The position numbers and the translations under genes were made by a program. Positions 7,830 to 60,370 of a stretch of 64,000 nt of DNA are shown piece by piece. The notes below the pieces were generated by a model. It searched no databases, was not told the origin of the DNA, and saw only the letters and a list, made by a program, of their open reading frames with translations. Location: the NCBI RefSeq assembly GCF_006345805.1, contig NC_043006.1, positions 21,700,001 through 21,764,000 of the forward strand. Direction: 5' to 3'. The stretch's first letter is position 1; every line of letters starts with the position of its first letter. This DNA comes from Octopus sinensis (lineage: Eukaryota).

Positions 7830-7990
7830 TTTTTTTCTCTCCTTGTTTTTTCTGTGTCCCTTTCTGTAGAAGAGCGTAGGCTCGAAACGTAAAAGACTTT
7901 TTCTATTCCTGAGCGTCATACTAATACATCTGTTTGTTTTGTACACCGCCTCCTGTCTTCTTCTTTTGGTTTTTTTCGTAAACTCTCCCT
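7830..7990 (+). mobile_element. Penelope-type terminal-repeat relic with a variant hammerhead motif (7860-7895)
   Basis: cttt-CTGTAGA-a-gagc gtag gctc-GAAA-c-GTA^-aaag. The same unit recurs near 26190, 41306, 41715, 43380, 44010 and 60220. Confidence 0.7.
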
Positions 7991-8965
7991 ATGTATGTGT
8001 TTTTAAAATATATATATACATATATATATATACATATATATATATATATATATATATATATATATATATATATATATATATATATATATATATATATATA
8101 TATAATCTAATCTTATATAATGATATTTAACGATAGCCAAAACGAACAGACTTTTTTCCGATGCCCGGAATTGAAAAGATGGGACTGAACATGAAAGTAC
8201 ATGGTTGCAAAAGCAAGAATCTAAACCACACAGTCATGCCTGATTCTTCTATCCCTAATAACTTTCTAAAAAAGAAAAATGCATATTTTTAGACGAAATT
8301 TTGCAGACATTTTGGTGGGGGGGTGTAGAAATACGTTGGGGAGAGCGAAGACTACGTAATGGGGACAAAAGTGAAAAACTTAAAGTTATGGAAATAAGGG
8401 GCAACAAATTCAGAGGGTAGTGGTGATGGGAAGAGTTGCAGGAAAAATTGATTAGAGTCTCCTCCCAAAATATTTTTTCTGATTTCATTTTAGAGCAATT
8501 ATATAAAAAAAAAACTAACACTAAAAAGTTTCCTTAAAATAAATATGCATTTTTCGGTAAGTTATGAAGAAACAAAATCGATGGAAAGAGGTCATCAATC
8601 TGTACTTATGCTCAGCATATCGCGATATTCAACAACATTAGAAAGGGCAACAAGTGAACGGTTACCACTTGGTGTAGATGTAGGCTAAACAAAATAGAAA
8701 GCGGCTGAGCACTGGAATTGCTAGAGCTAATGTAGCACTCAAGAAATAGAAATGCAGCTCATCTTTGAGCGACTATGACATTGAGTCACAAACTATCGAA
8801 TACCTATTCGGCTGCTTCTTAAATACCAGAATCAGCACTTTCACTGACTTCAAAATCTTTTAAAATGCAGAGAAATTAACAAAATTTAGTTAAAAGTGAA
8901 GGAGGCTAGGCACAAATATCCTGCTGACTTTAGGATGGAGGGATGTTGATACTTTTATAAATTTA

Positions 8966-9347
8966 CTAGCAGTATCGCCCGGCGTTGCTCAGGTTTGTAA
9001 GGGAAATAACTATAAAGCATTTTTAGAGAGTTATAGCCAAAAAATAGCAAACAAATGGAAAAAAATGATGGTAAATTTTTTTGAGAGTTAAAAAAGGTGG
9101 AGTTGCGTCCCCTAGACGGTCTGTGGTTTGGGTTTCTGATTCTCGACCCCATGTCGAATTTATCGATTTTTTTCAGAACTGGGGGAACTTTTCAAAATTT
9201 TCGCTGCGTTAGTTTTGAATTATGACATTGGGCTATGTGTGTGTCAAGTTTCATCAGAATCGGTTGAAAGCCGTGGTCAGAGTGAGGGTACGAGAAAACA
9301 GACACACAGAAAACGCACAGACAAACTGCCGTTTATATAGAGAGAGA
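8966..9347 (-). mobile_element. Non-autonomous Helitron
   Basis: Minus strand starts A|TC and ends with a GC hairpin (cctgagcaacgccggg) plus gatactgCTAG|T, with no TSD. Termini are shared with 31786-32167 and 55443-55750. Confidence 0.8.
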
Positions 9348-9516
9348 TAACTTTCCTGACATTATTCATGATGTTCAGTGACGTAAAATCGGTTCAAGCG
9401 GCAGGAGGACCAAAGGTGTCAATGGAAATTGCTCCGGTTCAGGATCGAGTGTTCACAGGGTTAAAATTATTTGCACGCTCCATACTTCAACACGATTAAT
9501 ATTAAAAAGGTACTAT

Positions 9517-9932
9517 AGGCGCAGGAGTGGCTGTATGGTAAGTAGCTTGCTAAACATCCTCATGGTTCCGGGTTCAGTCCCACTGCGTGGCATCTTGGGC
9601 AAGTGTCTTCTGCTATAGCCCCGGGCCGACCAATGCCTTGTGAGTGGATTTGGTAGACGGAAACTGAAAGAAGCCTGTCGTATATATGTATATATATATA
9701 TATGCGTGTGTGTGTTTGTGTGTCTGTGTTTGTCCCCCTAGCATTGCTTGACAACCGATGCTGGTGTGTTTACGTCCCCGTCACTTAGCGGTTCGGCAAA
9801 AAGAGACCGATAGAATAAGTACTGGGCTTACAAAGAATAAGTCCGGGGTCGATTTGCTCGACTAAAGGCGGTGCTCCAGCATGGCCGCAGTCAAATGACT
9901 GAAACAAGTAAAAAAAAACAAAAGAGAAAGAG
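9517..9932 (+). mobile_element. SINE family A, full length (tRNA-like head, internal TA/TG microsatellite, 3' stem-loop tail)
   Basis: Head ggcgcaggagtggctgtatggtaag, B-box ggttcagtccc, tail ggcggtgctccagcatggccgcagtcaaatgactgaaacaag. About 10 copies in the window. Confidence 0.9.
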
Positions 9933-58913: not shown

Positions 58914-59135
58914 CTGGCAGAATCGTTAGCACACCAGGCGAAATGCTTAGTGGTATTTTGTGTGCCGCTACGTTCTGAGTTCAAATTCTGCCGAGGTCAT
59001 CTTTGCCTTTCATCCTTTCGGGGTCGATAAATAAAGTACCAGTTTCGCACTGGGGTCGATGTAATCGACTTAATCCATTTGTCTGTTCTTGTTTGTCCCC
59101 TCTATGTTTAGCCCCTTGTGGGTAGTAAGGAAATA
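58914..59135 (+). mobile_element. SINE family B
   Basis: ctggcagaatcgttagcac...gccccttgtgggtagtaaggaaata. Confidence 0.9.
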
Positions 59136-59782
59136 TATATTCTTTTTTTAATTTTATTTTCTTAACAAAACTCATTAGCAATTATATTTAAATTATACTC
59201 AGAAACAAAAGAATTATTTTCTTTAAAGTTTGCATTATCAGATAACAAATCGTTTTCTATTTGCAATATGAAAAATATTTTTTTTTAAATGGAAGCTAAT
59301 GTACAAACTGAATGCAAAACATAGAAATGTCTCTATGCCTCTATATTTTTAACTTAGGCGTTAGGATTTACAATTATCAATTTTGCTTAAATTGCTATAG
59401 TGTGATTTTATATTAATAATTTATAATATCCAGTTTTGAAAGTGTAAACATGCAGACACTTAGTCTTCGTTAAAATTAAAAATAAATAGCTTCTTTAGAA
59501 TTTCAATTTAAACACTTAAGTATAAATAAAAAATATGGAAGGGCATTTACGACTATTTTAGTTTTTAAATTCTAACTTCATCAGCAATATTTTGTTGTTG
59601 TTTTTTCTTCTTATCCCTTACTTTTTTGGCTTAATTACTGCTCGTTCTGCTTTTCCAGTTCTATACTTACGAGTATTATAAGATTCGGCGCCCGCATTTT
59701 TCATCATATATATATAATATATATATATATATATATATATATATATATATATATATATATATATATATATATATATATATAT

Positions 59783-60158
59783 AATCCGTTCTGTCTGTTT
59801 GTGTGTCTTCTAGGATCTCGGGCATCATCCAACCCATTGCGCTCAAATTTGATATGTAGATATCGACAGTACCGGGGCGTGTATAAGCCTTGAAAAAAAT
59901 TATAAAAATCGATTCCAGGTGAGAATGCGATCGATAAATCTGTGGGAACGTGCATTTGCACGCGCAGCTACATCAGCTGTTGCGATCGATACTACGCGTA
60001 CGCGAGAAAAATGCACGTGCAGTTTGCGCAAAAAAAACCCGGCTGGCTTGAAATAGTGCCACAAAATGGGATGGTCGGACAAGTTGTTTTGAGAAAATTT
60101 GGTTTAAATGTTTGACAACTCAGCACCGTCCATTGGACGGGGGGGGGCGTTTTGCTCG
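59783..60158 (+). mobile_element. Helitron-like non-autonomous element (second family)
   Basis: The 5' TA tract and ctgtctgtttgtgtgtc resemble the start of the other Helitrons. A 3' hairpin ccgtcca-t-tggacgg precedes gCTCG|T. Confidence 0.55.
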
Positions 60159-60211
60159 TATATACATAGATATATATATATATATATATATATATAATAT
60201 ATATATATATC

Positions 60212-60370
60212 GTTAGCTCCTACACGCATATTTTTCTCTTCTTGTTTTTTTCTGTGTATCTTTCTGTCGAAGAGCGTAGGCTCGAAATGAGCGTTATACT
60301 AATACATTTGTTTGTTTGTACTCCACCTGCCTTCGTTTTTTGTTTATTTTCGTAAACTTTCCCGTTATAC
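60212..60370 (+). mobile_element. Penelope-type terminal repeat; variant hammerhead with the 3' part deleted
   Basis: tctttctgtcgaagagcgtaggctcgaaa is joined directly to tgagcgttatactaatac. Confidence 0.65.

What the first reader, a model, noticed from the sequence alone, without database searches (positions are those of the whole stretch)
7860..60290. Multi-copy minimal hammerhead family with a non-canonical CUGuNGA core
Seen: a ~160-200-bp repeat occurs seven times (motifs near 7860+, 26218+, 41357-, 41724-, 43481-, 44039+, 60259+). Its consensus folds as a minimal type I hammerhead: tcttt / CTG-T-N-GA / a / gagc-gtag-gctc / GAAA-C-GTH^ / aaaga. N varies (A, C, T) at the one free core position and H varies (A, T, C) without breaking NUH in four copies. 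The normally invariant A6 is T in all six copies that keep the core intact. Established: Penelope-like elements carry minimal hammerheads with palindromic stem III that are thought to work as dimers. Inference: this is either an active natural core variant or a family that spread after losing cleavage.
Basis: partly seen in the sequence, partly recalled or inferred. Interest (0 to 1): 0.75.

Follow-up and report, generated by a model that had tools for sequence, protein, structure and literature searches.

The report
Conserved U6 hammerhead in Neptune retrotransposons
These repeats are the tail ends of a very abundant jumping gene whose small hammerhead-shaped RNA has a U in place of a normally fixed A while the rest of the motif stayed unchanged across six lineages, so it is likely a slowed but still-used self-cutting RNA, although cutting is untested.

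Summary
The repeat is real: seven copies, all with U at hammerhead position 6, but only three keep the whole core and cleavage triplet. It is the 3' end (pLTR) of a recently active Neptune-type Penelope-like element. Long copies carry RT plus GIY-YIG, and 6 of 20 long loci have the motif on both sides of the ORF. Genome-wide there are 14,893 exact U6 matches, against 172 A6 and 390 C6/G6. A6 copies look like scattered back-mutations. A sister family (60-64% amino-acid identity) keeps A6, so U6 is likely derived. Among 127 copies not picked on the motif, six subfamily consensuses differ inside the 36-nt motif only at N7 and H17: 0 of 34 other sites vary, against 51 of 115 flanking sites and 14 of 32 four-fold sites of the endonuclease. 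The motif is therefore under purifying selection in the source elements. Cleavage is not shown. Position-6 mutants are poor cutters in print, and copy 5' ends do not pile up at the cut site (1 of 26). Best reading: an attenuated, dimer- or protein-assisted hammerhead. New variant of a known kind.

The parts
7832..7992 (+). 5'-truncated pLTR end, A7/A17 subfamily; motif 7860-7895 intact (U6 at 7867, predicted cut after 7891); ends in (TA)n
26181..26355 (+). 5'-truncated pLTR end, C7/A17 subfamily; motif 26219-26254, core and triplet intact, one stem II mismatch (26239)
41306..41451 (-). pLTR end, A7 subfamily; stem II and part of the core deleted; runs into the N gap 41206-41305
41718..41833 (-). 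pLTR fragment, A7 subfamily; motif 41760-41725 with G16.2 lost and G at 17; 3' part missing; shares its upstream part with the 41306 copy (possible local duplicate or assembly artefact)
43380..43588 (-). pLTR end of the youngest subfamily (U7/U17); motif 43517-43482 intact (U6 at 43510, predicted cut after 43486); ends in (TA)n
44000..44167 (+). pLTR end of the oldest subfamily; motif 44039-44074 decayed (G12 and C15.2 lost), C17
60209..60367 (+). pLTR end, C7 subfamily; motif 60260-60287 followed by a 28-nt deletion that removes the triplet and the 3' strand of stem I

Best explanation
The repeat is the 3' end of a Neptune-type Penelope-like retrotransposon whose minimal hammerhead has a fixed A6-to-U change and is conserved across its subfamilies, and it likely still cuts the element's RNA slowly, only when two copies pair through the ACGU palindrome and probably with help from the element's protein. 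Shown: identity of the element, fixation of U6, purifying selection on the rest of the motif, neutral decay of inserted copies, and read-through of the motif in most insertions. Inferred: transcription of tandem pLTR-ORF-pLTR loci gives an RNA with two motifs about 4.5 kb apart. Reverse transcription starts about 110 nt downstream of the motif, at the element's own TATATA, primed at a genomic (TA)n tract. The RT must then copy through the motif, so a fast cutter would destroy its own template; a slow core is tolerated or favoured while some cleavage is kept for RNA processing.
For: Element: GIY-YIG upstream of long copies; RVT_1 E=1.1e-7; motif 0.7-1.0 kb after the endonuclease in 30 of 30 young loci, all with T6; both flanks in 6 of 20 long loci. 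Fixation: 14,893 T6, 172 A6, 390 C6/G6; 2 A6 in the first 100 listed of 299 old-subfamily copies; copies picked for A6 fall into all six subfamilies. Selection: 0 of 34 motif sites vary among six subfamily consensuses against 51 of 115 flank sites (Fisher p=7e-8) and 14 of 32 four-fold endonuclease sites (p=6e-6). The two variable sites are exactly N7 (four states) and H17 (A or U); no G17 subfamily was seen. C3, G5, G8, A9, G12-A14, A15.1 and U16.1 are all kept. Print: natural A6C gives low but real activity (PMC3088659 section 8; PMC7151607 passages). A lizard PLE hammerhead cuts only with the element's protein, and its RT starts internally on uncut RNA (PMC11167929 parts 1-2).
Against: No cleavage data exist for this RNA. 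In a type III hammerhead all single and double mutants of the CUGA turn except the C3-G8 swap had low activity (PMC9901934 passage). Copy 5' ends show no pile-up at the predicted cut: 1 of 26 ends between -32 and +33 (small sample). U6 lets the core mispair with the A15.1-G16.2 strand in the monomer (P=0.98 for the youngest subfamily, 0.42-0.63 for three others). Loop II is as invariant as the core, and two other invariant blocks (9 and 12 nt) lie downstream, so sequence-specific binding could explain part of the conservation. The subfamilies are related and columns are not independent, so the Fisher p values are too small. A sister subfamily fixed a different damaging change (U4C, 17 of 30 loci), which fits relaxed demand for catalysis. 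In the lizard element, ribozyme mutants did not affect insertion in vitro.
Confidence: 0.55

Rival explanations
1. The U6 motif no longer cuts. Its fold or sequence is kept because the element's RT-endonuclease binds it, or because it dimerises the RNA or serves as a promoter or RT-positioning element.
For: Low activity of CUGA-turn mutants; no 5'-end spike at the cut site; loop II invariant; U4C fixed in part of the sister family; ribozyme mutants neutral for insertion in vitro in PMC11167929.
Against: The only free sites are the two that catalysis leaves free. Position 17 moved from A to U in two subfamilies but no G17 subfamily was seen, although A-to-G is the commoner mutation type; this is weak, resting on few events. 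All catalytic residues are retained.
Confidence: 0.3
2. U6 is fully compensated and the ribozyme is about as fast as canonical PLE hammerheads, through dimer geometry, a different metal ion or protein contacts.
For: A6C is nearly rescued by Mn2+ in two hammerheads (PMC7151607 table 1); the family is the most abundant of the hammerhead patterns I counted in this genome.
Against: 115 of 127 copies picked without regard to the motif read through it; no second-site rescue in the pairwise scan; no compensating core change is visible in the sequence.
Confidence: 0.08
3. The motif is a dead relic that hitch-hiked in a successful element and is under no constraint.
For: Inserted copies decay at the same rate inside the motif as at invariant flank sites, 4.15% each; 5 of 7 window copies are damaged.
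Against: Decay after insertion is expected for any function. Between source lineages 0 of 34 sites changed while four-fold sites diverged up to 43%, and three CpG sites in the motif are kept in all six consensuses although they decay in copies.
Confidence: 0.07

Closest known systems
Minimal type I hammerheads (min-HHR) of metazoan Penelope-like elements (Cervera and De la Pena 2014, PMC4209133; read: main text parts 1-2 of 4, supplement file 2 part 2 of 3)
   Same: Position in the pLTR, short stem I, extra nucleotide after A9, G10.1-C11.1 pair, palindromic C15.2-G16.2 with no loop III, U-rich 5' flank, mostly solo copies.
   Different: Their consensus is CUGANGAH and every row in the part of the alignment I read has A6. 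The core variant they name is U3-A8. Their descriptor fixed the catalytic boxes, so it would miss this family.
Natural A6C hammerhead of phage Bcep176 (PMC3088659 section 8 and passages; PMC7151607 passages)
   Same: Natural change at position 6 with the rest of the core intact; low activity in Mg2+.
   Different: C rather than U; one phage locus rather than more than 14,000 genomic copies with lineage-level evidence of selection; activity was measured there and not here.
PAc, Poseidon-type PLE of the green anole (PMC11167929, parts 1-2 of 4)
   Same: pLTR hammerhead, RT start downstream of the ribozyme, AT-rich targets, insertions made from uncut RNA.
   Different: No position-6 change is mentioned for PAc in the parts read, and its ORF starts inside the ribozyme. 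Here the ORF starts about 750 nt downstream, and the insertion end coincides with a TATATA in the element that matches the target, whereas PAc starts at a non-homologous site.
Neptune clade of C-terminal-EN PLEs (PMC8557442, passages and supplement part 54)
   Same: RT then CX4CX2C linker then GIY-YIG with CCHH; DKG motif; (TA)n targets; hammerhead in the pLTR.
   Different: The paper calls canonical hammerheads universal in such PLEs; this family's core is not canonical.
Small PLE-associated hammerhead variants that cleave as dimers (Lunse, Weinberg, Breaker, PMC5785218; not held, seen only as a reference line in PMC6765202)
   Same: By title and by the review's summary: short stem III, PLE-linked, dimeric cleavage.
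   Different: Unknown. I could not check whether that paper or its supplements list U6 cores.

Membership tests
Penelope-like element, C-terminal EN | Single ORF with RT followed by GIY-YIG endonuclease | tested here: met
   RVT_1 E=1.1e-7 above cutoff; GIY-YIG E=0.00037 and 0.0069, both just under cutoff; open frames of 806-1009 codons covering both
Penelope-like element, C-terminal EN | Partial-tandem structure forming pLTRs | tested here: met
   6 of 20 long loci have the same 3' end repeated 4.4-4.5 kb upstream
Neptune clade | CX2-5CxxC linker before GIY-YIG, with the long spacer of Neptune rather than the short one of Nematis | tested here: met
   CSRPRCRTC linker, compared by eye with the published alignment
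Neptune clade | Placement in an RT tree with reference PLEs | not tested
   no reference sequences were on hand as files
Neptune clade | Bias for (TA)n targets | tested here: met
   23 of 26 young 3' ends that could be located among 30 loci are followed by TATA
PLE minimal hammerhead (min-HHR) | Stems I and II, extra nucleotide after A9, G10.1-C11.1, palindromic 15.2-16.2, NUH triplet | tested here: met
   all six subfamily consensuses; stem I pair probability 0.76-0.90 and stem II 0.97 in 210-nt context
PLE minimal hammerhead (min-HHR) | Core CUGANGA with A6 | tested here: not met
   U6 in 14,893 of 15,455 exact matches; filed as a core variant that descends from the family, not as a canonical member
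PLE minimal hammerhead (min-HHR) | Covariation in stems | tested here: inconclusive
   None within the U6 family (stems invariant). Between families the fourth stem I pair is C-G here and mostly G-C in the sister. In 21 distant A6 motifs stem II pairing beat 2000 of 2000 shuffles, stem I did not (105 of 2000 reached it)
Hammerhead ribozyme | Site-specific self-cleavage | not testable with these tools
   only assembled contigs were offered, which cannot show RNA ends; the genomic 5'-end footprint showed no spike
Non-LTR retrozyme | Non-coding tandem units of a few hundred bases, each with a hammerhead | tested here: not met
   copies are dispersed 5'-truncated ends of a coding element; 30 of 30 loci hold one exact motif within 3 kb

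The most novel reading that the evidence does not exclude
Penelope-like elements repeatedly evolve throttled hammerheads because their RT must copy through the ribozyme. The U6 core is a gated ribozyme: inactive as naked RNA and switched on by dimerisation plus the element's own protein or a non-Mg ion. A position regarded as invariant would then be a natural tuning knob, and descriptor-based censuses would be missing whole high-copy ribozyme families.
Probability: 0.25. Interest if true: 0.75.

Novelty: new variant of a known kind. Interest (0 to 1): 0.5.

Why it matters
What hammerheads do in Penelope-like elements is open: the papers read call it unclear and one shows cleavage is dispensable in vitro. 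This family offers a natural experiment. A young, high-copy element keeps everything in the motif except A6, natural A6 revertants exist in the same backgrounds (for example L041, L060), and sister lineages carry A6/U4 and A6/C4 cores. Measuring them side by side would tell whether PLEs need cleavage, slow cleavage or only the fold. It also shows that searches requiring CUGANGA miss at least 14,893 motifs in one genome.

Tried and rejected
Rfam scan: no hammerhead among 150 rows shown of 241. RNA evidence: no RNA holder was listed on record and only contigs were offered; laying them showed no joint in the 5' UTR and no loose end at the cut site among the rows shown, which is not evidence either way. 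Idea of an older canonical A6 subfamily inside the family: rejected, 2 A6 in the first 100 listed of 299. First conservation test was biased because many of its 202 copies were picked on the motif; it was redone on 127 copies picked on downstream sequence, endonuclease or arbitrary position with the same result. Idea that U6 and the sister's C4 both lock the same off-state helix: rejected, C4 copies do not form it and natural A6 copies misfold in other ways. The dimer with helix III is not the lowest-energy dimer (-13.7 against -26.8 kcal/mol), so folding energies do not support the dimer by themselves. Link to the window's own PLE-like fragment at 3502-4506: rejected, it gave no tblastn hit with this family's ORF. 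Literature searches for a printed natural A6U core found none; the library lacks most subscription papers and PMC5785218, and the single-mutant heat map of PMC9901934 is a figure I could not see.

Full report
Observation. The seven copies are present at the stated places and strands. All seven have T at hammerhead position 6. Only three (7860+, 26219+, 43517-) keep core, triplet and stem I, and two of these also keep stem II perfect. The copy at 41760 has lost G16.2 and has G17, the copy at 60260 has a 28-nt deletion over the triplet, and the copy at 41379 lacks stem II. Rfam listed no hammerhead among the 150 rows shown of 241. The genome is a 2.7-Gb animal assembly; that it is octopus-like is my recall from its repeats, not a call result.

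Copy number and state of position 6. One exact 25-nt pattern gives 14,893 matches with T6, 172 with A6 and 390 with C6 or G6; reversed controls gave 0. With stem II free the count is 20,959. Copies picked for A6 fall into all six subfamilies rather than forming a clade, and the oldest subfamily has 2 A6 in the first 100 listed of 299. A6 copies are therefore most simply back-mutations after insertion.

What carries it. Long copies extend upstream through a low-complexity 3' UTR into a GIY-YIG domain and an RT. An endonuclease search scored 150 places of 16,446 first-look candidates, all 97-100% identical. All 30 loci returned carry the motif 0.7-1.0 kb downstream with T6; 27 are exact and three have one lesion each. 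I fetched 20 of those places (19 chosen for long open frames): open frames reach 1009 codons, and 6 of 20 have the same end repeated 4.4-4.5 kb upstream. Pfam gives RVT_1 above cutoff and GIY-YIG just below. The CX4CX2C linker, its long spacer and the (TA)n ends (23 of 26 located ends) match Neptune in PMC8557442 (passages; supplement part 54), judged by eye and without a tree. In tandem loci the element continues past the usual 3' end through its own TATATA into a 5' UTR and an ATG about 750 nt after the motif. I infer internal priming about 110 nt downstream of the predicted cut, as shown for another PLE in PMC11167929 (parts 1-2 read).

Descent from a canonical hammerhead. A profile search of 464 kb gave 36 hits, 29 of this family and 7 of sister families with A6. 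The sister pattern has 10,865 exact matches and all of the first 100 listed have A6; 17 of 30 fetched have U4C, and the fourth stem I pair is mostly G-C where this family has C-G. One sister locus has an ORF 60-64% identical to this family's about 2.7 kb upstream on the same strand; continuity across that gap was not fully shown. More distant CUGAUGA motifs exist (227 matches, control 1); in 21 of 30 fetched that are not of this family, stem II pairing beat all 2000 shuffles while stem I did not (105 of 2000 reached it). Every row in the part of the min-HHR alignment of PMC4209133 that I read has A6. U6 is thus likely derived and older than all six subfamilies.

Selection. A first test on 202 copies was biased by motif-based picking. 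I repeated it on 127 copies found with a downstream-only profile in loci picked on downstream sequence, on the endonuclease or at arbitrary places, and assigned subfamilies from downstream sequence alone (49, 21, 20, 15, 12 and 10 copies). The six consensuses differ inside the 36-nt motif only at N7 (U, C, A, G) and H17 (A, U). Of the other 34 sites 0 vary, against 51 of 115 ungapped flank sites (p=7e-8). Four-fold sites of the endonuclease vary at 14 of 32 and differ by up to 43% pairwise (consensus from 2-5 copies per group; p=6e-6). Single copies mismatch their consensus at 4.15% inside the motif and 4.15% at invariant flank sites (115 copies; 12 without the motif dropped), so constraint acts on source elements and not on inserted copies. 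G17 and C17 together give 153 matches, about half each in the first 100 listed, so no G17 lineage expanded. Caveats: lineages share history, flanks include slippage-prone T tracts, loop II is also invariant, and two other invariant blocks lie downstream. Whether U6 itself is selected cannot be told from one site.

Does it cut? In print, natural A6C is slow in Mg2+ and largely rescued by Mn2+ (PMC3088659 section 8; PMC7151607 passages). All single and double mutants of the CUGA turn other than the 3-8 swap had low activity in a type III hammerhead (PMC9901934 passage; the figure with single values was not visible). Canonical min-HHRs cut weakly even as dimers (PMC4209133). The lizard PLE hammerhead needs the element's protein, and its mutants do not affect insertion in vitro. 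Here, 115 of 127 copies read through the motif, and 1 of 26 5' ends lying between -32 and +33 starts exactly at the cut (one of the 26 is an internal deletion), which is no enrichment. Folding shows U6 allows a core mispairing in the monomer, but natural A6 copies misfold in other ways and the sister's C4 does not use that helix. The modelled active dimer is not the lowest-energy dimer. Sequencing runs were contigs only and cannot show ends.

Mechanism and odds. Most likely (0.55) the motif is an attenuated hammerhead that cuts slowly as a dimer, probably with protein help; slowness would spare the template that RT must copy through. Next (0.30), it is a non-cleaving fold kept for protein binding or RNA pairing. 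Full compensation (0.08) and neutral relic (0.07) are less likely.

Novelty. PLE minimal hammerheads, natural core variants and a natural position-6 variant (A6C) are known. Nine searches found no printed natural A6U core. The most relevant paper, PMC5785218, was not held, and its supplements may list such cores; supplement file 1 of PMC4209133 could not be searched. Other papers seen only as passages: PMC6765202, PMC6155905, PMC7229834, PMC11014351, PMC6962438; bioRxiv 2026.07.22.740005 part 1 of 5. Earlier AI notes of this scan describe what appears to be the same family in this genome and position-6 variants in other genomes; these are unchecked leads and not support. Verdict: new variant of a known kind, interest 0.5.

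Noticed in passing
L217-L246; L161, L159, L154, L169, L174, L175: Sister Neptune-type family with a 3-nt loop II, 10,865 exact matches; a large part has fixed U4C in the core (17 of 30 fetched), a second non-canonical core in the same genome.
   Followed up: partly
window 3502-4506 (+): 334-codon open frame resembling the C-terminal half of a PLE-type RT (LYRDD motif); no Pfam hit and no hit with this family's ORF. Possibly a Naiad remnant; that label is recalled, not tested.
   Followed up: partly
L097:3360-3375: The element's own TATATA sits exactly where 3' ends join genomic (TA)n tracts, suggesting microhomology-assisted internal priming, unlike the non-homologous start reported for PAc.
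   Followed up: partly
window 41206-41833: Two A7 copies with the same upstream sequence flank a 100-N gap; possibly one locus assembled twice.
   Followed up: no
window 23774-24722: 35-bp tandem array of 27 copies at 94% identity.
   Followed up: no
window 767-856 and 26701-26994: Long fold-back palindromes; not related to this family by blast.
   Followed up: no
L241/L242 and L046, L048: Pairs of hammerhead-bearing ends in opposite orientation 1-1.5 kb apart; in L241/L242 an inverted duplication of about 590 bp includes an unrelated repeat.
   Followed up: no
L188-L215: Low-copy, older CUGAUGA families with other stem II sequences; three have GCU rather than GUH at the cleavage site.
   Followed up: partly
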